44,165 nucleotides of DNA from an uncultured Candidatus Saccharibacteria bacterium (GCA_964507275.1 CAZDPG010000001.1:613555-657719), one strand, 5' to 3'; shown: positions 1 through 8,159, counted from the stretch's first letter. Made by a program: numbers and translations. Notes: a model not told the origin generated them from the sequence alone.

Positions 1-656
1 GGAGGACGTTTGTGACCATTAAGGAGCTGCTCGAGAAGCAGGGCTATCAGGTTCGCTTCACTCCACTCAACAGCGCTGACTATGGGAATGTCCCACAGAG
101 TCGTGAGCGAGTGTATATCGTCGGCCTTCGTGAACCGGATGCTTTTAATCGGTTTGAATTTCCCAAAAAAGTTGAACTGACGAAATCAATAGACGATATC
201 CTCGAGCCTGACGTGCATGACAAATATTATTATCGAAGCGGTTGGCTTTATGATCGCATTAAGGACGCGGGGATGCAGCGTGGGCTGGTTTATCAATGGC
301 GACGCATATACCTGCGAGAGAATAAGAGTGGTCTCTGCTTCACGCTGACAGCGAATATGGGCACGGGCGGGCATAATGTGCCCCTCATACGCGATGGGAA
401 AGGGTTGAGGCGTCTTACTCCACGGGAGTGCGCGCGACTGCAAGGGTTCCCAGATAGTTTCAAATTCCCTAGTTCGATTCCTGAGTCGCGCATGTACAAG
501 CAGATAGGGAACTCTGTGACCGTGAGTGTTATTGAGCGTATAGCCAGAAACATACGCAAGGCGTTAGAAGCTCCGAACACTCAAGACGGGAGTATTTTTG
601 AGGAAGAAGCTGAGCGAGATACTGTCGGGCAGACGCTCGCAACGTACGTCGCCTGA
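1..656 (+). CDS. DNA (cytosine-5)-methyltransferase, C-terminal ~215 aa (5' end lies outside the window)
   Basis: The frame is open from nt 3 to the TGA at 654-656, so the listed GTG at 12 is not the true start. The translation shows C5-MTase C-terminal motifs: QSRERVYIVG (QxRxR, motif VIII), RRLTPRECARLQGFPDSF (motif IX) and YKQIGNSVTV (GNxV, motif X). Confidence 0.85.
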   Translation, partial: RTFVTIKELLEKQGYQVRFTPLNSADYGNVPQSRERVYIVGLREPDAFNRFEFPKKVELTKSIDDILEPDVHDKYYYRSGWLYDRIKDAGMQRGLVYQWRRIYLRENKSGLCFTLTANMGTGGHNVPLIRDGKGLRRLTPRECARLQGFPDSFKFPSSIPESRMYKQIGNSVTVSVIERIARNIRKALEAPNTQDGSIFEEEAERDTVGQTLATYVA

Positions 657-764
657 GCCGGCGGTCTTTGGCCGTCGTCGCGCCAATAGATTCTTTCAGA
701 AAGCGCTATAAAAAGCGCCAGGTTTGTACTATATAGATTTACCCGCTAAGGCGGTGGAAGACTA

Positions 765-792
765 TTGACAAAAAGTATGGGTAGACTAATCT
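765..792 (+). promoter_or_regulatory. Sigma70-like promoter for the six-gene island operon
   Basis: TTGACA at 765-770, a 16-nt spacer, then TAATCT at 787-792. It lies about 20 nt upstream of the ATG at 814. Confidence 0.5.
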
Positions 793-813
793 ACGCAAAT
801 ACGACTCGCCCTT

Positions 814-1056
814 ATGAAGGATTCAAAGAAAAACGAAAATAAGCAGGAAAAGAGGAAGCGCTTCGAGCGACTAGCGGTATACCGGACTAATGAAGTGCTA
901 CGGAAGCTAAAAGTCCTGAGCAATTGCGGTAATAGGAGCGCCTATGACTACTCGGAAGATGAGGTGAACAAGATATTCTCCGAGATTGAGCGTCATGTGA
1001 AAGACGCTCGCGCAAAATTCTCATTCTCTAAGCAGCAGAGAGAATTTAAGCTCTGA
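814..1056 (+). CDS. Small (80 aa) Lys/Arg-rich, predicted all-helical protein of unknown function; first gene of the island operon
   Basis: ATG-started ORF. Its stop (1054-1056) is 1 nt from the next ATG (1058). The N-terminus is basic (KKNENKQEKRKR) and no known motif was recognised. Confidence 0.55.
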   Translation: MKDSKKNENKQEKRKRFERLAVYRTNEVLRKLKVLSNCGNRSAYDYSEDEVNKIFSEIERHVKDARAKFSFSKQQREFKL

Positions 1057-1057
1057 T

Positions 1058-2941
1058 ATGGCTAAGAAAGAAGCGGCAAAAGACTCATTGTGCTGGCACT
1101 TCCCGGATCTGCAACACGCAGACTCGGAGGGGCTCAATGATCCGCTTCTCCAATATTTTGGTGGTGACTATAACTGGTATATCGCCCGGGAAGTCATACA
1201 GAATTCCATTGATGCTCACGACGATACTAATGATGCTCCAGTCGTAGTGAAATTCGAGAAGCTCTCAATGAAGACCTCGGACATTCCCGGACTCGACGAG
1301 CTCAAAGAGCACCTGAGTGTTTGTCTTGCGCAGGCGAAGGCAGAACAAAATGACCGAGCCGAACGCTATTACGCAGATGCTGTGCGTGCCGCATCTGAGC
1401 CGAAGACGACCGTCCTTCGTGCCTCAGACAGAAACACTACTGGACTCACGGGCGCTGACCGAGATAAGAAGGGGAAGTGGCATAGGCTTGTCCGTGCTGT
1501 CGGTGAGAATCAGGCTACTGGCGTCGGTGGTGGCTCTTACGGCATAGGTAAGGGGGCTCCCTTCGTCGCGTCGCGATTGCGGGCAGTCTACTACTCGACC
1601 AAGAACGAAGCCGGAGAGACTATTTTCCAAGGAAAGGCCCGTCTCATGAGCCATGAGCTCAAGGGAAAAGAATATCGAGGCGTAGGATCCTTTGGCGTGA
1701 AAGGCTATGAATCTGTGCGTGATGCCAAGCTCATCCCGCCGGAGTTTCTTAGGGAAGAGCAGGGGACAGATATCAACATCATTGCGTATGGCGCCATCCT
1801 CGCATGGGCAGATGAACTCGCGACTTCTGTGGTCAAGAATTTTTGGATGGCCATATACTCAGGCCTCTTGGAAGTCGTAATTGTGCAGGGTCTCAGTGAG
1901 ATAGCAATTAATCGAGAGACATTGCGGGCGTGTCTCGAAAAATACTCGCGTGATGAAGCACTTGTCTATTACAGAAGCGTCGTAGAGCCGACGCGCGTGT
2001 TTGAAAAGCCGCTACCACTCCTTGGGTCGTGCCGTCTATTCATACGAATCGAAGAGAAATTCCCTCGCAAGCTGGCGATGATGAGGCGTCCCAAAATGAC
2101 GGTTGATGAATGGAAATTCCCTAAAACGCTCCAGGAGCCCTTCGCTGGAGTCTTCCTATGCGACAACGTTGAAGGGAACATGATTCTTCGCGGGCTTGAA
2201 CCGCCAGAGCATGACAAATGGGATCCGAAGCTCGACGATGGGTCGGGTAAGGAAGCTGTTGATGAAATCCGGGACTGGATTCGGGGCAATCTCATGGAAC
2301 TCGCCGAAGAAGAGAGTGGAGATCCTGAAGAAATTCCCGAGCTCGAGAAATTCCTGCCTTATGACGAAGATTCAGACCGGGTTTCCGAGTCGAATAAAAG
2401 CCGGAGCAAGCCATCTGGCCTAACGAGTGCCGAAGAGAGTGGCATGGAAGTTGGGGCAGATCGCGACGAAAAGCTAGAGGAAGTCGAAGAATTTGTGAGC
2501 AAGCCTTCTTCACGAATCCGTGACGGAGGGGATGGACCGAGCCCAGGCGGACAAAAATCAAAAGGGAGTAGCGGTGGCAATGGCGGGGGTGCAGGAAATG
2601 ACGATGGGCGAGGGGTTGCGCGTATTAACACATCCGCTGCACGGTTCAGAGTTATTTACGCGGGAACTGCAAAATCCGGGATGGCCGAGTATTGCCTGAT
2701 AATCGAACCAGCCGCAGATATAGAAGGTTCTCTCGGCATTGTAGCCATTGGGGATGATTCTGCCGTCTATCCGGTGAACCTTTCCTCTGTTGAAGAGTGG
2801 GGCAGTAAAGGCAAGGAACTCAAACACTCAGGATCGTTCATCGAGGAACTGAAACTGAAGAAGAGCAAGGCCGTGCGGCTTCGGGTCACTACCAAGTCAG
2901 GGTCTCGCTATGCCCTCGGAGTTGAAAATTATGAAAGCTAA
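1058..2941 (+). CDS. GHKL/Bergerat-fold ATPase (MORC/sacsin/HSP90-like ATP-binding module) with an acidic/Gly-rich linker and a C-terminal beta-rich domain
   Basis: N-box ExxxNxxDA in AREVIQNSIDA (E45/N49/D52, nt ~1187-1216). G1-like segment SDRNTTGLTG. G2-like GGGSYGIGKGAPF (nt ~1524-1562). Low-complexity acidic/Gly/Ser linker at ~2305-2615. Confidence 0.8.
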   Translation: MAKKEAAKDSLCWHFPDLQHADSEGLNDPLLQYFGGDYNWYIAREVIQNSIDAHDDTNDAPVVVKFEKLSMKTSDIPGLDELKEHLSVCLAQAKAEQNDRAERYYADAVRAASEPKTTVLRASDRNTTGLTGADRDKKGKWHRLVRAVGENQATGVGGGSYGIGKGAPFVASRLRAVYYSTKNEAGETIFQGKARLMSHELKGKEYRGVGSFGVKGYESVRDAKLIPPEFLREEQGTDINIIAYGAILAWADELATSVVKNFWMAIYSGLLEVVIVQGLSEIAINRETLRACLEKYSRDEALVYYRSVVEPTRVFEKPLPLLGSCRLFIRIEEKFPRKLAMMRRPKMTVDEWKFPKTLQEPFAGVFLCDNVEGNMILRGLEPPEHDKWDPKLDDGSGKEAVDEIRDWIRGNLMELAEEESGDPEEIPELEKFLPYDEDSDRVSESNKSRSKPSGLTSAEESGMEVGADRDEKLEEVEEFVSKPSSRIRDGGDGPSPGGQKSKGSSGGNGGGAGNDDGRGVARINTSAARFRVIYAGTAKSGMAEYCLIIEPAADIEGSLGIVAIGDDSAVYPVNLSSVEEWGSKGKELKHSGSFIEELKLKKSKAVRLRVTTKSGSRYALGVENYES

Positions 2942-3755
2942 AAATATCTCATATCCATATCCTGTTCTGGGAAATGACGACGATGTCGCCGGAAGCTTCG
3001 ATGTCGCGTTCAAACACGTCCTAAAAAGGGATTCAGTAATTTTGCGTCCCACTTATCGCCTCAAGAATAAGACGCTAGAGCGACTAATCAAGAGCAAGGC
3101 GGCTGCGTTCACGCTCGAGCTTGAATGTCCCGGCACATTTTTTCGGAAGACCTTCCACTGCTTCGAGAGCGATCCTGAGTTTTCGGTAAGCTCCAATACA
3201 CTTAGAGAGTATGTCGTCGTCGCCTTCTGTGTCCGCGCTACACAGACGATTCCGAAGTATGAGATGGAAGGTTGCCACCCTGACTATGCTGGTTTTACGT
3301 TCGATATAGGGGCGGGAGATGTATTGGCGATCGGAGGGTTTACATCTTTCAACGCCGAAAAAGATTTCGATCCAATGCAGCCGGCCGTTTCTTCGCTCAT
3401 AGCCATCAAGCCGGGAATTCATGAGTCCGGGCCAATGGTCATTGATTACAGCCAGGACAAGATCCTCATTAAGCTGTCCGTAGCCGATTATAAAAATTAT
3501 GCAGCTGTGAAGGGGAGGGTTTCAGTGGCTGGAATTCTGCATGCGTCGATTGTCTTGCCCGTACTCGCCGATGCGATTCAGCTCATAGCGCTGAATGACC
3601 AAGAGCTTCAGAATACGCATTGGTATAGACGGCTTGAGATCATTTTGCGCCAGCAAAGCCTGCCAATAGAAGAGCCTCTCATTGCGGCGCAGAAAATACT
3701 TAGAAGTCCGATTGAGAGAGCTTTAGCAGGTCTTGCAGACGATAACGACGAATAA
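2910..3755 (+). CDS. Hypothetical protein (281 aa; alternative start ATG 2931 gives MKAKNISYPYPVLGNDDD...)
   Basis: The ORF overlaps the upstream stop (2939-2941) by 32 nt, or by 11 nt from the 2931 start, indicating translational coupling. No nuclease, helicase or NTPase motif was recognised. Confidence 0.7.
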   Translation: MPSELKIMKAKNISYPYPVLGNDDDVAGSFDVAFKHVLKRDSVILRPTYRLKNKTLERLIKSKAAAFTLELECPGTFFRKTFHCFESDPEFSVSSNTLREYVVVAFCVRATQTIPKYEMEGCHPDYAGFTFDIGAGDVLAIGGFTSFNAEKDFDPMQPAVSSLIAIKPGIHESGPMVIDYSQDKILIKLSVADYKNYAAVKGRVSVAGILHASIVLPVLADAIQLIALNDQELQNTHWYRRLEIILRQQSLPIEEPLIAAQKILRSPIERALAGLADDNDE

Positions 3756-3758
3756 GAT

Positions 3759-4568
3759 ATGACAAACCAGAACATATTCCGAGGCATGTACGTCGCAGAG
3801 CTGCGAGACAAGGTTCATTCCGGCGAGTCTTTGCGCAGCTACTTCCAGCGAGATGTCGATTACCCCTCTTCGGCGGTGATAGAGTCGACAATCAAAGTAA
3901 ACCCGGAGAGCCTGAAGCTGAGGTATGCCGAAAAAGAAGAGTCCGTCTTGGATGATCTTGAGAATGCTATCGCTCTCTACGAAGCATTCCCTGGATTGAA
4001 TGAGACGCAGGCATCTGACACGCGACTGTGGACGTACCTTACGCACGTATCGCTACGCGATTATGTCGCAAAGCGCTGGCCGCTCTCTGGAAGCTTCGAA
4101 CAAGTCTCGAAAGATGCGAAAGCGAAGGAAGCGGCAACAAACTACATTCTTAGCCACTGGTTCGCGACCGGCGGTAACGACCGTTCTCTCCGCCGAAACG
4201 CTGTCGCACGTTTGTGGTGGGCGGTCCGACTGACAAGGGCGCCATGGGAGAGGGATCCAGAATTTTTTGCAGACCTCAATAAGGAAACTGACCCGTATCA
4301 TTTCACTCGCGTTCTCTTCTCTACGCAGGACATCTACCAGCAGGTGCTCGAACGAGCGCTTGGACGTGATAACCGCCTGCTCGTCACGATTCTTGAGTTT
4401 ATTGCCGAGCACCCTGACATTAAGCGTGAAGAGATTCGTGACTTTATGAAGGAACTCAATCTAGCGCTCTCCATCAGGAATTTCTCTCTGTTAGACAGAC
4501 AAGAAATGCGCAAGGCGGTCTTTAGTATCGGGAAGTCTCAATTGACGACCGAACACTCGGCAACATAA
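3759..4568 (+). CDS. Hypothetical protein (269 aa) with Trp-rich motifs (TRLWTYLTH, SHWFATGGNDRSLRRNAVARLWWAVRL)
   Basis: The ATG is 3 nt after the upstream stop. It appears helical and no catalytic motif was recognised. Confidence 0.7.
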   Translation: MTNQNIFRGMYVAELRDKVHSGESLRSYFQRDVDYPSSAVIESTIKVNPESLKLRYAEKEESVLDDLENAIALYEAFPGLNETQASDTRLWTYLTHVSLRDYVAKRWPLSGSFEQVSKDAKAKEAATNYILSHWFATGGNDRSLRRNAVARLWWAVRLTRAPWERDPEFFADLNKETDPYHFTRVLFSTQDIYQQVLERALGRDNRLLVTILEFIAEHPDIKREEIRDFMKELNLALSIRNFSLLDRQEMRKAVFSIGKSQLTTEHSAT

Positions 4569-4578
4569 TTTTCCTCAT

Positions 4579-4983
4579 ATGTACCCATATAAACTCTTTA
4601 TCAGCCATTCCTGGTCATACAGTGATCAGTATGACGGATTGTTAAAACTGCTCAGAAATGAGCCACGCTTCGACTTCCGAAACTATTCTGTTCCAAAAAA
4701 TGATCCGATCCATAATGCACCAAATTCTGCTGCACTCTCGGAGGCGATCAGAAATCAAATGGTGTTCTGTGACGTCATTCTTATCGTGGTCGGGGTTTAT
4801 TCAAGCTACAGCAAATGGATAATCAAAGAGATTGCCATCGCACAGTCCTTCTCCAAGCCGAAGCCGATTCTAGCCATTGAGCCGTGGGGAAGCTATCGGA
4901 CTTCGTATGTGAAGGAGCATGCGGACGCCACAGTTGGGTGGAACGGAGCATCCATCGTCTCTGCAATAAGGAGTCTCGCATAA
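4579..4983 (+). CDS. Stand-alone TIR-like domain protein (DUF1863 / ThsB-like TIR family)
   Basis: N-terminal YKLFISHSWSYSD strand motif, and SKWIIKEIAIA (SxWxxxE, Glu84 at nt 4828-4830), which is typical of TIR NADase folds. The protein is 134 aa, a single domain. Confidence 0.75.
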   Translation: MYPYKLFISHSWSYSDQYDGLLKLLRNEPRFDFRNYSVPKNDPIHNAPNSAALSEAIRNQMVFCDVILIVVGVYSSYSKWIIKEIAIAQSFSKPKPILAIEPWGSYRTSYVKEHADATVGWNGASIVSAIRSLA

Positions 4984-4984
4984 T

Positions 4985-5539
4985 ATGAGTCCTGAGGAGA
5001 TTGATTTGAAGCTTTTCACTTCGCCAAACGATCAGTACGGCGATAAATATACTGAGCACCTGCTTGAGCAGTACAAGAACTATGTAGCTGCGACGGAGGC
5101 AGTAAGTGATAGGCGTTATAAGACAAACGAATTTTTCCTGGCCGTTAATACTGCTCTCGTAACATTGCTTGGGTTCATCGTGGTTCAACAAACTAGCCAC
5201 CACACGAGTATTCTAGCCCTCTCTTCAGTAGCGGGGATTGCTCTGGATTACCTCTGGTATCGAATCATACGTTCGTACCAAGGTTTGAACAGCGGGAGGT
5301 TTAAGGTCATCAGCATTATTGAACGGCGCCTACCTCTTGCTCTTTACGATACGGAATGGGAGGTACTGGGTAAGGGCAAGAACAGAAATTTGTATTGGCC
5401 CTTTACACAAATAGAACGTGGCATACCTTGGATTTTCATCAGCATTTTCCTGGTACTGCTATTCATAGTCACTTATCCACTTGATCACAGCATCTGGCTC
5501 CATGCTTATTCTATTGTGACGACTGGTCACTTTAAATAG
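4985..5539 (+). CDS. 3-TM membrane protein, SLATT-like (N-terminal cytoplasmic helix + TM hairpin + C-terminal TM)
   Basis: The ATG is 1 nt after the TIR gene stop (TAATATG). Hydrophobic spans are FFLAVNTALVTLLGFIVVQ, ILALSSVAGIALDYLWYRII and IPWIFISIFLVLLFIVTY. Confidence 0.7.
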   Translation: MSPEEIDLKLFTSPNDQYGDKYTEHLLEQYKNYVAATEAVSDRRYKTNEFFLAVNTALVTLLGFIVVQQTSHHTSILALSSVAGIALDYLWYRIIRSYQGLNSGRFKVISIIERRLPLALYDTEWEVLGKGKNRNLYWPFTQIERGIPWIFISIFLVLLFIVTYPLDHSIWLHAYSIVTTGHFK

Positions 5540-5626
5540 CTTAGTCTCGCCATTTTCTTGGTACTCGCTACGCATTTCCCATAGATATGGCTCAGTTCGG
5601 AAAAGAGGTAATCGTGGGCACAAAGT

Positions 5627-5656
5627 AAAAGCACCTGAAAGGGTGTTTTTCTTTTT
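5627..5656. terminator. Hairpin plus T-tract ending the island operon
   Basis: AAAAGCACC / GGTGTTTTT arms around the loop TGAAAG, followed by CTTTTT. The A and T arms make it potentially bidirectional. Only 4 G:C pairs, so it is weak. Confidence 0.5.
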
Positions 5657-5699
5657 AGGCATCTGCTAGTATTGTCGATGGAACAGTCCCGTAGTTAAA

Positions 5700-5950
5700 C
5701 TGAGATCGTGAAGGAGCCTTTCTTATGCCAGTGTGTTTCAAGATTAGGACAGCGAGCGGAGTGCGGAATCCACGTCCTTCCCCAAGGGAACGAACCGGGA
5801 GGCCGCAGTCGCGGAATCAGGACGAAATCGATGCAGGAAAGATTGCTCGTTTCCGTCGCAAACAGCGGCAAGCGCGCCGCACAGAAAATCCTGCCGAATA
5901 ACCCCGGCTGGGTAAATCGAAAAGGCCCGAACGCAAGTATCGGGCCTTGG
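5700..5950 (+). ncRNA. Unassigned structured-RNA-like region (candidate cis-regulatory leader or small RNA)
   Basis: Stop-free on both strands and densely self-complementary: CCGC/GCGG 5803-5814, GCGGC/GCCGC 5865-5880, GCAGGA 5833-5838 / TCCTGC 5889-5894, and a terminal 9-bp hairpin at 5922-5948. It lies directly upstream of the cobalamin adenosyltransferase gene. Confidence 0.3.
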
Positions 5951-5979
5951 TGTTGCAAGGCAGAGGTATACTGAAAACC

Positions 5980-6513
5980 ATGCTTTATACCGGGAAAGGG
6001 GATGGAGGGACGACGACGGCCTTCGGATGTAATCAGCAGCGGATATCGAAGTCATCCGAACTTCCAGAAGCACTAGGAGCGCTCGATGAGTTGAATGCTT
6101 TTCTCGGCTTCGTGAAGATGCGTGCGACAGAAGATAAGCGTATCGCCGGTACGGTGCGCGACGTGCAGGAGACCCTTTTCATTATTCAGGCGGGTGTGGC
6201 AGGTGCTGACAAAAGAGTAGGGGAGAATACTGTGAAAGAGGTGGAGGACATGGTGAACGGGATAGAAAAAGAAATCCCTCCCCTGAAAGGCTTCTCGATC
6301 TCAGGAGGCACAGAGCTGTCCGCGCTTCTCGATGTGGCGCGGACGCTTGCCCGGAAGGCCGAGCGGCGGCTTATCGCTGCGCATGACGCTGGCGCGTGTG
6401 CTCTTCCGTCCGAGACGAAAGCCTATATGAATCGGCTTTCCTCACTGCTTTTTGCGCTCGCGCGGCTTGCGAATCATCATGTGGGCATCGCGGAGGAGAA
6501 TCCGCGGTATTAA
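5980..6513 (+). CDS. PduO-type ATP:cob(I)alamin adenosyltransferase
   Basis: N-terminus MLYTGKGDGGTTTAFG...ALGALDELNAFLG matches the family signature (xYTxxGDxGxT ... EAxGxxDELN). The listed TTG start at 5947 adds 11 unsupported residues. Confidence 0.85.
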   Translation: MLYTGKGDGGTTTAFGCNQQRISKSSELPEALGALDELNAFLGFVKMRATEDKRIAGTVRDVQETLFIIQAGVAGADKRVGENTVKEVEDMVNGIEKEIPPLKGFSISGGTELSALLDVARTLARKAERRLIAAHDAGACALPSETKAYMNRLSSLLFALARLANHHVGIAEENPRY

Positions 6514-6550
6514 TCCGCTCCTCTCGAAGTGAGCATTCTTCTCGTTTTCG

Positions 6551-6559
6551 TGTTATAAA
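6551..6559 (+). promoter_or_regulatory. Extended -10 element (TGtTATAAA) upstream of tRNA-His
   Basis: TG at 6551-6552 and TATAAA at 6554-6559, 13 nt before the tRNA 5' end. Confidence 0.35.
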
Positions 6560-6572
6560 AAATCTCGTGCAT

Positions 6573-6645
6573 GGCGGCTATGGTGTAATGGTTAACACTG
6601 GAGCTTGTGGAGCTCTCGATCAGGGTTCAATTCCCTGTAGCCGCC
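6573..6645 (+). tRNA. tRNA-His (anticodon GTG) with genome-encoded G-1; no encoded CCA
   Basis: Hand-folded cloverleaf: G-1, acceptor GCGGCTA/TAGCCGC, D stem GTGT/ACAC, anticodon stem GGAGC/GCTCT with loop TTGTGGA, T arm CAGGG-TTCAATT-CCCTG, discriminator C. Confidence 0.9.
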
Positions 6646-6679
6646 CTTGATTTTCGCCCGCGCGTGCTACTATCCGGTT

Positions 6680-7321
6680 ATGAAAAATGTCGTGATGGGT
6701 ATATTGCTTATCGTGCTTATCGGCATCGGCGGACTCGTATATCGAAACGCCGTCGAACATCCTTCGCGCCCGATCGCGTGCCCGCTCGATTCAAAATCAT
6801 GTCCCGACGGATCGCTTGTTGCGCGCTCCGGTCCGGCGTGTGAATTCGGGGCATGCTTGCCGCCGAACGTGTCGCTCACGGATGCGCGCATCTTGTTCGC
6901 TCTACCGGAAAGTTTTGTTCCTGCTGAACTTCCTGATGCTACGAGCATTGCCGCATACGAGGCCTCTGTCGCTTCTTCGACCGGAAGCTCTCGGATCGTC
7001 GTCCGGCGGTACGCGATAACGGCCTCGTCGACGGCACTCGCCGCCATCCAAGAGACGGCTATCGATGGCACGGGGCAGCCGATCCCGGCGACATCGTTCT
7101 CCTCGTCAGTGATCGGCGCGCGGCGTTTCGCTATCGTATCGATAGGGCGTTTCGGGGGAGTCGTACATACCGCGTATTACCTCGCTCGAAATGCCGATGT
7201 CCTGCGTTTTGATGCTATCGATACCAGTGTGTCGAACTGGAGTGATAGTGAATTGGACATTACATCTCTACCGGCACATGCGGCGCTGATGAAGCTTCTC
7301 ACGGCCATGCAAATGTTATAA
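6680..7321 (+). CDS. Hypothetical membrane-anchored/secreted protein
   Basis: MKNVVMGILLIVLIGIGGLVY is an N-terminal TM or signal anchor. The listed start at 6647 abuts the tRNA. The extended -10 TGcTACTAT (6665-6673) lies 6 nt before ATG 6680. Confidence 0.6.
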   Translation: MKNVVMGILLIVLIGIGGLVYRNAVEHPSRPIACPLDSKSCPDGSLVARSGPACEFGACLPPNVSLTDARILFALPESFVPAELPDATSIAAYEASVASSTGSSRIVVRRYAITASSTALAAIQETAIDGTGQPIPATSFSSSVIGARRFAIVSIGRFGGVVHTAYYLARNADVLRFDAIDTSVSNWSDSELDITSLPAHAALMKLLTAMQML

Positions 7322-7355
7322 TAGGGGGTATCCATAACCATTAATCATCTCCGCC

Positions 7356-8159
7356 ATGAATGACAAATCTCTATCAGAAATATTCGCTACCGACGGAGTG
7401 CGCATCGCTCTCACGAGTGCGCTCGTTGTCCTCACGTTGTTCCTCATCGCACAGACCATGATGCTTGTCGGAAGTTTCGGTCGCTCGGGCATCCCAGCGA
7501 CGGATACGATCACCGTAAGCGGTGATGGACAGGCAACGCTTCCTCCTGACGTCGCGAAAGTAACCTTCACTGTCCAGAATACGGAGGCAACGGTCGTCGA
7601 AGCTCAGGCAGCAACAACGAAGCAAGCAAACGCCGCTCTCGCCTTCGTGAAAGAGCAGGGCATCGCAGATAAGGATGTCCGGACACTCTCCTACAACATC
7701 TATCCGCAGTATTCATACCCGAACCCTTGCAGGAGCGGCGTGTGCCCTGCGTATAACGACGCACCGAAGATTATCGGCTACCAGGTGTCTGAGACAGTCC
7801 AGGTAACGATACATGATCTTGCCTCTGTGGGGGCATTCCTCGGCGGTCTCGGCAAGCTCTCGGTGCAGAATGTCTCCGGACCAGAATTCTCTCTTGACGA
7901 TACGACGGCTGGATACGATGCTGCTCGCGCTGACGCCATCGCGAAAGCGAAGAATCAGGCGACCGAGCTCGCTCGCCAACTCGGGGTCCGACTCGGCAAG
8001 ATAGTTAACTTCAGCGAATCCTCAGGCAATCGTCCGTACCCTATGGTGTATGGCATGGGTGGGAGCATGATGGACGCGAAAGAGTCCTCGGTGCCGAGTA
8101 TTCCGGCAGGAGAGAACACCTACTCGTCGTCTGTTTCCATCACCTACGAGATTCGTTAG
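7356..8159 (+). CDS. SIMPL-domain (DUF541) protein with N-terminal TM anchor
   Basis: ITVSGDGQATLPPDVAKVTFTV...IIGYQVSETVQV...AIAKAKNQATELARQLGVRLGKIV matches the typical SIMPL/26-kDa periplasmic immunogenic protein pattern. Confidence 0.8.
   Translation: MNDKSLSEIFATDGVRIALTSALVVLTLFLIAQTMMLVGSFGRSGIPATDTITVSGDGQATLPPDVAKVTFTVQNTEATVVEAQAATTKQANAALAFVKEQGIADKDVRTLSYNIYPQYSYPNPCRSGVCPAYNDAPKIIGYQVSETVQVTIHDLASVGAFLGGLGKLSVQNVSGPEFSLDDTTAGYDAARADAIAKAKNQATELARQLGVRLGKIVNFSESSGNRPYPMVYGMGGSMMDAKESSVPSIPAGENTYSSSVSITYEIR

What the first reader, a model, noticed from the sequence alone, without database searches (positions are those of the whole stretch)
765..5656. Six-gene coupled operon next to a C5-methyltransferase (small helical protein, GHKL ATPase, two unknowns, TIR-like, 3-TM membrane protein): candidate undescribed defence system
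Seen directly: there is one promoter-like element (TTGACA-16-TAATCT, 765-792) and one terminator hairpin (5627-5656). Between them are six same-strand ORFs with gaps of +1, -32 (or -11), +3, +10 and +1 nt, so this is a single translationally coupled unit. It follows a cytosine-5 MTase and has lower GC than the flanks.

The gene content combines a Bergerat-fold ATPase, which acts as a sensor or motor in MORC-type R-M-linked systems, with a TIR domain and a small multi-TM protein. TIR domains and small TM proteins are typical NAD-depleting or signalling and membrane-disrupting effectors in Thoeris-, CBASS- and Pycsar-like immunity. The two 270-280-aa proteins in the middle have no motif I can place.

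I do not recognise this six-gene combination as any named system (Thoeris, Gabija, Septu, Zorya, Druantia, BREX, DISARM, Dnd/Ssp, Wadjet, Lamassu, Detocs and so on). That judgement comes from memory, not a search.
Basis: partly seen in the sequence, partly recalled or inferred. Interest (0 to 1): 0.9.

Follow-up and report, generated by a model that had tools for sequence, protein, structure and literature searches.

The report
Two stacked candidate phage-defence modules
The "six-gene operon" is two separate, already catalogued but untested candidate phage-defence cassettes placed end to end in a Patescibacteria genome: a methylase-linked GHKL-ATPase system (PADLOC PDC-M33) and a Thoeris-like TIR plus small membrane protein pair.

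Summary
The six ORFs, their spacing, the terminator hairpin and the lower GC are all real. They are not one conserved six-gene system.

**Module 1 (genes 1-4 plus the upstream C5 methylase).** The GHKL, 281-aa and 269-aa proteins match PADLOC candidate PDC-M33 A, B and C (E 5e-119, 9e-58, 1.5e-36). The order (C5 MTase)-(small protein)-A-B-C recurs in 82 examined loci from many phyla, often with Vsr. None of those loci carries this TIR/8xMP pair.
- A is a GHKL+S5 ATPase at fold level and carries the ExxxH signature of paraMORC2.
- C (DUF6339) gives a confident model with no known fold.
- B is an orphan.
- No nuclease is recognisable in A, B or C.

**Module 2 (genes 5-6).** This is a ThsB-type TIR with an invariant catalytic Glu84, followed by a Pfam 8xMP membrane protein. 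The pair recurs on its own in most of 80 8xMP loci and occurs as a fusion. The TIR is 63% identical to a TIR listed with an untested "3TM" effector in a 2025 Thoeris survey.

**Verdict.** This is a defence island that stacks two known candidate families. Its claim of a single undescribed system fails on its own refutation criteria. Interest is moderate.

The parts
12..656 (+). C-terminal two thirds of a cytosine-5 DNA methyltransferase, cut by the window start. It is the modification gene linked to module 1.
   Evidence: Pfam DNA_methylase 1.7e-36 and TIGR00675 5.7e-38. A homologous C5 MTase lies directly upstream on the same strand in 36/82 related loci, within 3 kb in 14 more, and as a larger C5 MTase in 5 more. 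Its similarity co-varies with that of A (Spearman 0.64, n=36).
765..792 (+). Weak promoter-like element (TTGACA-16-TAATCT) upstream of the small gene.
   Evidence: The sequence was read directly. It falls below the scan threshold. The -35 and the downstream leader are conserved in L001.
814..1056 (+). g1: an 80-aa basic, predicted two-helix orphan protein that leads the cassette. A regulator or adaptor role is only inferred.
   Evidence: Homologues lie directly upstream of A in 33 of 82 loci. F17, A21, R24 and Y44 are invariant. No member has a Pfam, NCBIfam or PADLOC family. It also leads a different GHKL cassette in L094.
1058..2941 (+). A: paraMORC2-like GHKL+S5 ATPase. It has a disordered acidic/Gly-rich linker (434-519) and a C-terminal beta-sandwich (about 520-627). 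It matches PADLOC PDC-M33A.
   Evidence: PADLOC 5.3e-119. The AF2 model has pLDDT 76.6. Foldseek PDB top hits are HtpG, GRP94, Topo VI, SMCHD1, GyrB and MORC4, at E 2e-7 to 5e-5. Invariant residues are E45/N49/D52, D124/N126/G129, G159-K165 and E381/P383/H385.
2931..3755 (+). B: an orphan protein of about 274 aa (the ORF opens at 2910; the conserved start is Met8 at 2931). It matches PADLOC PDC-M33B.
   Evidence: PADLOC 9.4e-58. It lies directly after A in 76 of 82 loci. It has no Pfam or NCBIfam match, and a profile finds nothing in the PDB. The 120 best of 695 homologues are all about 270-290 aa with no Pfam domain.
3759..4568 (+). C: DUF6339 protein, matching PADLOC PDC-M33C. It is mostly alpha-helical with an Arg/Trp-rich conserved surface and is probably the DNA-contacting subunit.
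   Evidence: Pfam PF19866 2.2e-45 and PADLOC 1.5e-36. The AF2 model has pLDDT 89.8 and pTM 0.87. No fold match in the PDB or BFVD (best E 1.6 and 0.7). Some homologues are fused to the Bac_DnaA_C HTH.
4542..4569 (+). Best sigma-70-like match in the first 8 kb (TTGACG-16-CATAAT). It lies inside the 3' end of C, 10 nt before the TIR start, and could be module 2's own promoter.
   Evidence: 10 of 12 bases match. This is a consensus match only and says nothing about function.
4579..4983 (+). ThsB-type TIR protein (134 aa), the predicted signal-producing enzyme of module 2.
   Evidence: Pfam ThsB_TIR 6.1e-15 and PADLOC ThsB1 5.5e-11. Glu84 is invariant in 33/33 sequences, including three ThsB sequences taken from Table S1 of the survey (types IV, VII and VIII). 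It is 63% identical to a '3TM'-associated TIR, 57% to the E. coli 328 type IV ThsB and 44% to a type VII ThsB.
4985..5539 (+). 8xMP-family small membrane protein (184 aa, about 3 TM segments), the predicted membrane effector of module 2.
   Evidence: Pfam PF24838 8.7e-37. The family has 2430 representative clusters. A TIR gene lies directly upstream in most of 80 loci. A TIR-8xMP fusion exists, P0217. Hydropathy supports the TM segments.
5627..5656 (+). Terminator-like hairpin plus T-run after the last gene.
   Evidence: a 10-bp stem with 3 GC pairs followed by a T-run. It is the only + strand terminator-like site in 1-8000.

Best explanation
The region is a small defence island made of two independent modules that were joined recently in this lineage.

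**Module 1** runs from the window start to 4568 and continues to the left of the window. It is a restriction-modification-like system: C5 methylase + small leader protein g1 + paraMORC2-type GHKL/S5 ATPase (A) + orphan B + DUF6339 (C). It corresponds to PADLOC candidate PDC-M33.

Proposed working (inferred):
1. The methylase marks the cell's own DNA with 5mC.
2. C, and perhaps the beta-sandwich of A, contacts DNA.
3. A dimerises on ATP and clamps or loops DNA, as MutL, MORC and Topo VI-B do.
4. The A-B-C complex then cuts unmodified incoming DNA, or blocks it in some other way. The nuclease would be an unrecognised site in B or C.
5. g1, which has its own promoter-like element between the methylase and A, sets the timing or level of A-B-C expression.

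**Module 2** (4579-5539) is a Thoeris-like pair. On infection the ThsB-type TIR (catalytic Glu84) would make an ADP-ribose-derived signal from NAD+. That signal would activate the oligomeric 8xMP membrane protein to breach the membrane, giving abortive infection. This follows types V and VII Thoeris, which use the DUF2270 and SLATT membrane effectors.

**Shown:** domain and fold assignments, conserved residues, and independent synteny of each module.
**Inferred:** every biochemical step and the defence phenotype.
For: **Composite nature**
- A, B and C hit PDC-M33 A, B and C and nothing else in PADLOC.
- MTase-(g1)-A-B-C is collinear in 82 loci from Patescibacteria, Bacteroidota, Planctomycetota, Verrucomicrobiota, Bacillota, Pseudomonadota, Deinococcota and others. 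It also occurs on plasmids.
- None of those loci has this TIR or an 8xMP.
- The closest relatives instead carry other genes after C.
- The TIR and 8xMP have the lowest GC of the large genes (46% and 44.5%).
- A candidate promoter of their own sits at 4542-4569.

**Module 1 as R-M-like**
- A C5 MTase is adjacent or near in at least 55/82 loci. Vsr is present in several.
- MTase divergence tracks A.
- A has the GHKL+transducer fold with invariant ATP-binding motifs and an invariant E381xxxH385. That is the paraMORC2 signature that Iyer et al. 2008 found in R-M operons with cytosine methylases and Vsr (PMC2292703).
- C homologues are fused to a DnaA-C HTH.
- Neighbours are recombinases, REases and helicases.

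**Module 2 as Thoeris-like**
- The TIR matches the ThsB_TIR family and Glu84 is invariant.
- A window-type TIR lies directly upstream of 8xMP in 29 of 80 loci. A second ThsB_TIR class lies upstream in about 20 more, and 5 of 5 of these tested were confirmed.
- A natural TIR-8xMP fusion exists.
- The TIR clade is shared with validated type IV, VII and VIII ThsBs and with the predicted 'TIR + 3TM' configuration.
Against: **Module 1**
- No nuclease or other effector is recognisable in A, B or C.
- About a quarter of PDC-M33 loci show no C5 methylase within the DNA examined.
- One close relative has a conventional NgoFVII-type REase between the methylase and g1. The methylase may therefore belong to a neighbouring type II R-M system and not to A-B-C.
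- No experimental test of PDC-M33 was found: the library has no paper containing 'PDC-M33' or 'DUF6339'.

**Module 2**
- 8xMP has no recognisable ligand-binding domain.
- Equating it with the survey's '3TM' effector is an inference, because the table gives only TIR sequences.

**Independence of the two modules**
- The 10-nt spacing and shared orientation make co-transcription with module 1 likely in this genome.
- Two other Patescibacteria loci (L006, L094) also put a TIR plus small membrane protein directly after a GHKL cassette.
Confidence: 0.72

Rival explanations
1. One reading: all six genes form one integrated, previously undescribed system. The GHKL complex would sense infection and the TIR and membrane protein would be its dedicated effectors.
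For: - The genes are tightly spaced, share a strand and end in a single terminator-like hairpin.
- Two further Patescibacteria loci place a TIR plus small membrane protein right after a GHKL cassette: L006 after PDC-M33 and L094 after a different g1-led GHKL cassette.
- Iyer et al. 2008 noted TIR domains fused or adjacent to paraMORC4.
Against: - 0 of 82 PDC-M33 loci have this TIR or an 8xMP. Only L006 has any TIR.
- 0 of 80 8xMP loci have A, B or C.
- Relatives at 60-68% identity lack the pair.
- The slot after C is filled by unrelated genes: Vsr, HNH, type II REase, helicases, EMARD_N.
- Both halves are complete, recurrent units on their own.
Confidence: 0.07
2. Module 1 is not immunity. It is a methylation-associated DNA repair or maintenance module: a MutL-like GHKL ATPase with partners that assist very-short-patch repair of T:G mismatches created by deamination of 5mC.
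For: - It is linked to a C5 methylase and often to Vsr.
- A has a GHKL+S5 architecture like MutL.
- From memory, not checked here: MutL stimulates Vsr in E. coli.
- Iyer et al. mention occasional recruitment of such ATPases to repair.
Against: - This window's locus and most others have no Vsr.
- The distribution is sporadic, crosses phyla, and includes plasmids and islands. Neighbours are serine recombinases, REases and other defence genes.
- It is catalogued as a defence candidate.
- GC is lower than in the flanks.
Confidence: 0.08
3. Module 2 works without a diffusible signal. The TIR would be an NAD+-depleting effector, or a partner that binds 8xMP directly. 8xMP would then act as sensor or anchor and not as a signal-gated pore.
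For: - 8xMP has no recognisable nucleotide-binding domain.
- TIR-8xMP fusions exist, and these suit direct coupling.
- Many bacterial TIRs are NADase effectors (Yirmiya et al. 2025).
Against: - The TIR belongs to a clade whose validated members make signalling molecules for separate effectors.
- The survey modelled small membrane effectors without classical sensor domains (DUF2270, SLATT) as having inter-protomer signal pockets.
Confidence: 0.2

Closest known systems
PADLOC-DB v2 candidate system PDC-M33 (A, B, C)
   Same: The window's GHKL, 281-aa and DUF6339 proteins match the three PDC-M33 models nearly end to end (E 5e-119, 9e-58, 1.5e-36) and lie in the same order.
   Different: PDC-M33 is only a catalogue entry. 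No function, mechanism or test was found. This analysis adds the link to a C5 methylase, Vsr and the g1 leader gene. That 'PDC-M' entries derive from Millman et al. 2022 is my recollection and was not checked.
paraMORC2 / MORC-type GHKL ATPases of restriction-modification operons (Iyer, Abhiman & Aravind 2008, PMC2292703)
   Same: - A has an N-terminal GHKL domain with intact ATP motifs followed by an S5 domain.
- It has a conserved ExxxH in the C-terminal part of S5 (E381/H385).
- Its neighbours include cytosine methylases and Vsr.
- Its distribution is sporadic and mobile, and includes many Gram-positives.
   Different: - No SF-II helicase or recognisable RE-fold nuclease sits in the core; B and DUF6339 are there instead.
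- No Pfam HATPase_c_3 hit.
- Direct sequence comparison with the 2008 paraMORC2 set was not possible.
Thoeris types V and VII (TIR + DUF2270/ThsF or SLATT/ThsH membrane effectors) and the untested 'TIR + 3TM' configuration of Yirmiya et al. 2025 (bioRxiv 10.64898/2025.12.03.692087)
   Same: - It is a two-gene unit: a short ThsB-type TIR with a catalytic Glu, next to a small oligomeric multi-TM protein.
- The TIR is 63% identical to a '3TM'-associated TIR of cluster 2734565194 and 44% to a type VII ThsB of the same cluster.
   Different: - The effector is Pfam 8xMP. No DUF2270 or SLATT family appeared in the Pfam scan.
- The '3TM' configuration was not selected for testing in that study.
- The signal molecule is unknown.
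- That '3TM' equals 8xMP is inferred.
Classical Thoeris types I and II (ThsB + SIR2-SLOG ThsA, or Macro-TM effector)
   Same: A ThsB-family TIR is present.
   Different: The locus has no SIR2, SLOG or Macro domain.
Type II restriction-modification with Dcm-type methylase and Vsr
   Same: A C5 methylase heads the locus. Vsr accompanies it in relatives.
   Different: No recognisable restriction endonuclease. The putative restriction arm consists of three proteins that include an ATPase.

Membership tests
PADLOC PDC-M33 | Proteins matching the PDC-M33A, B and C models | tested here: met
   E 5.3e-119, 9.4e-58 and 1.5e-36, each nearly full length.
PADLOC PDC-M33 | The three genes adjacent and collinear | tested here: met
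   1058-2941, 2910-3755 and 3759-4568 on one strand. The same order holds in 82 loci.
paraMORC2 (Iyer et al. 2008) | N-terminal GHKL domain with conserved ATP-binding motifs | tested here: met
   E45/N49/D52, D124/N126/G129 and G159-S-x-G-x-G-K165 are invariant. Foldseek hits are HtpG, GRP94, Topo VI, SMCHD1, GyrB and MORC4.
paraMORC2 (Iyer et al. 2008) | S5 (transducer) domain after the GHKL domain | tested here: met
   Foldseek alignments of 400-460 columns to GHKL+transducer proteins. Residues 250-430 are modelled at pLDDT above 80.
paraMORC2 (Iyer et al. 2008) | Strongly conserved ExxxH in the C-terminal part of the S5 domain | tested here: met
   E381, P383 and H385 are invariant in 19 sequences of 26-69% identity. 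The motif definition was read.
paraMORC2 (Iyer et al. 2008) | Sequence clustering with the published paraMORC2 members | not testable with these tools
   No paraMORC2 sequences or model were at hand.
MORC sensu stricto / Pfam HATPase_c_3 | Match to the family model | tested here: not met
   No Pfam hit at E<=0.05 in A or 18 homologues. No PDB sequence or profile hit.
Type II restriction-modification | Cognate methyltransferase | tested here: met
   C5 MTase at 12-656. It recurs next to A in at least 55/82 loci.
Type II restriction-modification | Recognisable restriction endonuclease | tested here: not met
   g1, A, B and C show no nuclease family or fold.
Thoeris (general definition: signalling TIR + effector) | ThsB-type TIR domain with a catalytic glutamate | tested here: met
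   PF08937 6.1e-15 and PADLOC ThsB1 5.5e-11. E84 is invariant in 33/33.
Thoeris (general definition: signalling TIR + effector) | Conserved adjacent effector gene | tested here: met
   A TIR lies directly upstream of 8xMP in most of 80 loci. A fusion exists, P0217.
Thoeris (general definition: signalling TIR + effector) | The TIR produces an ADPR-derived signal that activates the effector, giving phage defence | not testable with these tools
   This needs LC-MS and phage assays.
Thoeris types I and II | SIR2-SLOG or Macro-TM effector | tested here: not met
   The region has no SIR2, SLOG or Macro hit.
Predicted 'TIR + 3TM' Thoeris configuration (Yirmiya et al. 2025) | TIR of cluster 2734565194 type | tested here: met
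   63% identity (1e-57) to entry 2676542066. TIRs adjacent to 8xMP are up to 76% identical to listed '3TM' TIRs.
Predicted 'TIR + 3TM' Thoeris configuration (Yirmiya et al. 2025) | Effector with three TM helices that is the same family as theirs | tested here: inconclusive
   Hydropathy gives two strong segments (48-69, 142-172). A third, weaker one (about 73-94) was read from the sequence. The table gives no effector sequences.
Pfam 8xMP (PF24838) | Match above the gathering score | tested here: met
   126.4 bits against a cut-off of 30.
BREX / DISARM / Druantia / CBASS / Pycsar | Signature proteins besides a methylase or TIR | tested here: not met
   In PADLOC only the MTase gives generic DrmMII/DruM hits. 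There is no cyclase, PglZ, BrxC, DrmA/B or DruE.

The most novel reading that the evidence does not exclude
In Patescibacteria, GHKL-ATPase cassettes led by the g1 small protein (PDC-M33 and the L094 variant) repeatedly recruit a TIR plus small membrane protein pair directly downstream. Examples are this window, L006 and L094. The pair could then be a functionally coupled second layer: the methylation-reading GHKL complex would trigger or license TIR signalling and membrane-disrupting abortive infection when restriction fails. That would be a hard-wired link between an R-M-like system and a Thoeris-like system.
Probability: 0.1. Interest if true: 0.7.

Novelty: new member of a known kind. Interest (0 to 1): 0.4.

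Why it matters
- **An open mechanism in a common family.** Nobody knows how it works. This analysis gives it a concrete anatomy: C5 methylase, optional Vsr, g1 leader, paraMORC2-type ATPase, an orphan protein, and DUF6339, whose confident model matches no solved or viral predicted fold. It also points to where an unrecognised nuclease or DNA reader probably sits. Prokaryotic paraMORC systems are the proposed ancestors of eukaryotic MORC chromatin ATPases, so a tractable methylase-linked member would be useful.
- **An untested Thoeris type with a named effector.** The TIR-8xMP pair attaches a large membrane-protein family (2430 clusters) to an untested predicted Thoeris type.
- **Layered defence in small genomes.** These reduced Patescibacteria genomes carry layered defence cassettes.
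- **No new kind of system.** The specific six-gene claim does not hold.

Tried and rejected
- **Sequence searches of A, the TIR and 8xMP against the PDB, plus profiles of A, B and C:** nothing significant.
- **Pfam on 19 A homologues:** no HATPase family.
- **Pfam on 32 g1 homologues:** only noise.
- **NCBIfam:** only the methylase hit.
- **Foldseek of the C model against the PDB and viral BFVD:** no fold match.
- **Literature searches for 'PDC-M33', 'DUF6339', '8xMP', 'octameric membrane protein' and GHKL + anti-phage + methyltransferase:** no relevant paper.
- **Single-protein locus scan with 8xMP:** found nothing. A 27-sequence alignment was too diverse. A 10-sequence alignment worked.
- **Looking for a C-protein-style operator upstream of g1:** no inverted repeat in 640-830.
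- **Testing whether the L094 cassette is a rearranged PDC-M33:** hhalign shows no relation of its 213-aa and 941-aa proteins to C or A beyond a weak GHKL stretch. Only g1 is shared.
- **Looking for identical TIRs between Table S1 '3TM' entries and my 8xMP loci, to prove '3TM' = 8xMP:** best identity was 76%, so this stays an inference.
- **Homologue search for B, hoping for informative fusions:** the 120 best of 695 hits are single-domain 'hypothetical' proteins.
- **B was not modelled:** the structure-prediction quota went to A and C.

Full report
**Observation**

The window holds the six same-strand ORFs exactly as described: 814-1056 (80 aa), 1058-2941 (627 aa), 2910-3755 (281 aa), 3759-4568 (269 aa), 4579-4983 (134 aa) and 4985-5539 (184 aa). 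The gaps are +1, -32, +3, +10 and +1 nt.

- Met8 of the 281-aa ORF is invariant in 51 homologues, so its real start is probably 2931 and the overlap is -11.
- The 269-aa ORF starts at 3759. Residues 4-7 are nearly invariant and are modelled as a confident strand.
- Upstream lies the C-terminal part of a C5 methyltransferase (12-656), cut by the window edge.
- A terminator-like hairpin at 5627-5650 followed by a T-run is the only + strand terminator-like site in the first 8 kb.
- GC is 44-52% across the genes against about 55% in the flanks.

The 'single promoter' is the weak point.
- TTGACA-16-TAATCT at 765-792 exists, but its -10 matches only 3 of 6 bases.
- Promoter-like hits are no more frequent than in shuffled sequence (7 against 6.9).
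- The best match in the region is internal, at 4542-4569, 10 nt before the TIR start.
- The -35 and the leader upstream of the small gene are conserved in a 68%-identical relative, which gives that site some support.

The downstream genes are housekeeping: a PduO-type adenosyltransferase, tRNA-His, SecE, NusG and, at the window end, 23S rRNA. The closest homologues are from Candidatus Paceibacterota and Moranbacteria, so the host is a Patescibacteria (CPR) bacterium.

**What the proteins are**

- **PADLOC.** The GHKL, 281-aa and 269-aa proteins match the three models of the candidate system PDC-M33 (A 5.3e-119, B 9.4e-58, C 1.5e-36). The TIR matches ThsB (5.5e-11). The membrane protein matches nothing.
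- **Pfam.** C is DUF6339 (2.2e-45), the TIR is ThsB_TIR (6.1e-15) and the membrane protein is the '8xMP' family PF24838 (8.7e-37). Pfam finds nothing for the small protein, A or B.
- **NCBIfam.** Only the methylase is named.

**Synteny test, the decisive result**

A profile of A retrieved 498 confirmed loci from one-genome-per-species contigs. I examined the best 80 of these plus two loci from an earlier single-protein scan, 82 in all.

*PDC-M33 side*
- B follows A in 76 loci and C in 75, in the same order. The loci come from Patescibacteria, Bacteroidota, Planctomycetota, Verrucomicrobiota, Acidobacteriota, Bacillota, Pseudomonadota, Nitrospirota and others. The cassette also sits on Deinococcus, Arthrobacter, Lactococcus and Ligilactobacillus plasmids.
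- A homologous C5 methylase lies directly upstream on the same strand in 36 loci and within 3 kb in 14 more. A larger C5 methylase, often with Vsr, is present in 5 more.
- Vsr directly follows C in at least nine loci. In L001 and L168 it sits between the methylase and the small gene.
- Methylase similarity co-varies with A similarity (Spearman 0.64, n=36). For B the value is 0.72 and for C 0.83.
- The small protein g1 is directly upstream of A in 33 of the 82 loci.
- None of the 82 loci contains this TIR or an 8xMP, by tblastn or by HMMs built here.
- Relatives with 60-68% identical A proteins (L001, L002, L165-L168) carry other genes after C: small membrane proteins, HNH_5, EMARD_N, Hypoth_Ymh.
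- The slot after C is a variable position. It holds Vsr, HNH or type II REases, helicase-nucleases, PrimPol-helicases and similar genes.

*8xMP side*
- The family is large, with 2430 clusters at 50% identity.
- In 80 loci from many phyla, a window-type TIR (47-69% identical) lies directly upstream of 8xMP in 29.
- A second class of 120-160-aa proteins lies upstream in about 20 more. All five tested are ThsB_TIR.
- A natural ThsB_TIR-8xMP fusion exists, P0217.
- None of these loci has A, B or C.

The region is therefore two independent, recurrent modules joined in this lineage.

**Module 1 in detail**

*Protein A*
- An AlphaFold model of A (pLDDT 76.6) has a well-modelled N-terminal 430 residues, a disordered acidic/Gly-rich linker (434-519) and a C-terminal beta-sandwich.
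- Its best PDB fold matches are all GHKL+transducer proteins: HtpG, GRP94, Topo VI, SMCHD1, GyrB and MORC4 (probability 1.0, E 2e-7 to 5e-5).
- The Bergerat motifs are invariant: E45/N49/D52, D124/N126/G129 and G159-K165. So is E381-P-P-x-H385.
- Iyer, Abhiman and Aravind (2008) defined paraMORC2 by a strongly conserved ExxxH in the C-terminal part of the S5 domain. They found MORC and paraMORC genes in R-M operons with cytosine methylases and Vsr. A fits that description. Direct comparison with their sequences was not possible.

*Protein C*
- C gives a confident model (pLDDT 89.8, pTM 0.87) that is mostly helical, with a small N-terminal sheet.
- It has no significant fold match in the PDB or in viral predicted structures.
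- Its invariant residues are rich in Arg and Trp: D87, R89, W91, R106, W107, R146, R151, W153 and W154.
- Some homologues carry a C-terminal DnaA-type HTH. This points to DNA contact.

*Protein B and g1*
- B has conserved P16/P18, D25, C73, T76, R79, G136 and W238. It has no family, and a profile finds nothing in the PDB. The 120 best of its 695 homologues carry no Pfam domain.
- g1 is an orphan two-helix basic protein.

*Reading*
- No nuclease is recognisable anywhere in the core.
- My reading is an R-M-like system in which A-B-C is the ATP-driven restriction arm that reads the methylase's mark.
- The rival that the methylase belongs to a neighbouring type II R-M system cannot be excluded for all loci. 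L165 has an NgoFVII-type REase between the methylase and g1.
- About a quarter of loci show no C5 methylase in the DNA examined.

**Module 2 in detail**

- Glu84 sits in the W-x-x-x-E context. It is invariant in 33 of 33 aligned TIRs. These include three ThsB sequences taken from Table S1 of the survey: the E. coli 328 type IV, a type VII and a type VIII ThsB.
- Yirmiya et al. (bioRxiv 2025) surveyed TIR signalling systems, annotated 29 putative Thoeris configurations and validated types V-XI. Validated membrane effectors include DUF2270 (three TM helices, ring oligomer, 3'cADPR) and SLATT (cADPR).
- Their Table S1 lists a '3TM' putative effector, not chosen for testing, for TIRs of cluster 2734565194.
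- The window's TIR is 63% identical to one of those TIRs, 57% to the type IV ThsB and 44% to a type VII ThsB of the same cluster.
- TIRs adjacent to 8xMP in my loci reach 76% identity to listed '3TM' TIRs.
- 8xMP has two strongly hydrophobic segments and one weaker one.
- I therefore equate TIR-8xMP with that predicted configuration. This is an inference, because the table gives no effector sequences.
- By analogy, the TIR would make an ADPR-derived signal and 8xMP would be the membrane-breaching effector. A direct, signal-free coupling remains possible, given the fusions and the absence of a ligand-binding domain.

**Is the juxtaposition meaningful?**

Mostly it looks like defence-island stacking.
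- The pair has the lowest GC of the large genes.
- It has a candidate promoter of its own.
- It is absent from all close relatives.

Two observations keep a coupled reading alive at low probability.
- L006, another Paceibacterota PDC-M33 locus, has a 134-aa 3TM protein directly after C (Pfam 8xMP E 0.0013, below cut-off). A bona fide ThsB follows it (PADLOC 1.7e-78).
- L094, a Patescibacteria locus, has a g1 homologue (55% identical), a 213-aa orphan and a 941-aa GHKL + sigma-70 region 4 + DnaA-C protein. ThsB_TIR and 8xMP follow directly. That cassette is otherwise unrelated to PDC-M33.

**Comparison with what is known, and verdict**

- Module 1 is a member of a catalogued but uncharacterised candidate family, PDC-M33. 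The family fits the paraMORC2-type R-M systems predicted in 2008.
- Module 2 is a member of a predicted but untested Thoeris configuration.
- Neither module is Thoeris type I or II, BREX, DISARM, Druantia, CBASS or Pycsar.
- I found no experimental work on either: no paper in the library contains 'PDC-M33' or 'DUF6339'.
- The finding is real and is defence-related by context. It is not a new six-gene system.
- Its value is as a well-dissected example of two open problems: how PDC-M33 acts without a recognisable nuclease, and what DUF6339, B and 8xMP do.

Noticed in passing
L094:908-5789: A second Patescibacteria locus has a g1 homologue (55% identical to the window's), a 213-aa orphan and a 941-aa protein with GHKL, Sigma70_r4 and Bac_DnaA_C domains. 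A ThsB_TIR and an 8xMP follow directly. g1 thus leads at least two unrelated GHKL cassettes, and TIR-8xMP follows a GHKL cassette twice.
   Followed up: partly
L006:11505-12606: In another Paceibacterota PDC-M33 locus, gene C is followed by a 134-aa 3TM protein (Pfam 8xMP E 0.0013, below cut-off) and a 228-aa ThsB (PADLOC ThsB1 1.7e-78). This is a different TIR plus membrane pair in the same slot.
   Followed up: partly
window:4542-4569: The best sigma-70-like match in the first 8 kb (TTGACG-16-CATAAT, 10 of 12) lies inside the 3' end of gene C. It ends 10 nt before the TIR ATG, which would give a nearly leaderless TIR-8xMP transcript.
   Followed up: no
L165:1-13902 and L166: In a relative with 64% A identity, the island reads: large serine recombinase, C5 methylase, NgoFVII-type REase, g1, A, B, C, a 341-aa or HNH_5 protein, then an EMARD_N protein. 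It lies next to a PduO-type adenosyltransferase gene, the same housekeeping neighbour as in the window (5947-6513). This suggests a mobile island near a shared site.
   Followed up: no
L001:7261-7668 versus window:657-813: The closest genome relative has a Vsr gene between the methylase and g1, and the window has none. The TTGACA -35 and the 'AAATACGAC...CCTTATG' leader upstream of g1 are conserved between the two.
   Followed up: partly
P0320, P0328, P0329 (homologues of window 3759-4568): Some DUF6339 proteins carry a C-terminal Bac_DnaA_C helix-turn-helix domain (PF08299). The same domain ends the L094 GHKL protein.
   Followed up: no
window:5660-5946: About 290 nt with no convincing ORF lies between the terminator hairpin and the adenosyltransferase gene. 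No Rfam family matches at gathering threshold.
   Followed up: partly
L002:11525-12046 and L001:11482-11859: The two closest genome relatives each have a different small membrane protein directly after gene C. One of them has a sub-threshold DUF4760 hit (E 1.4e-4).
   Followed up: no
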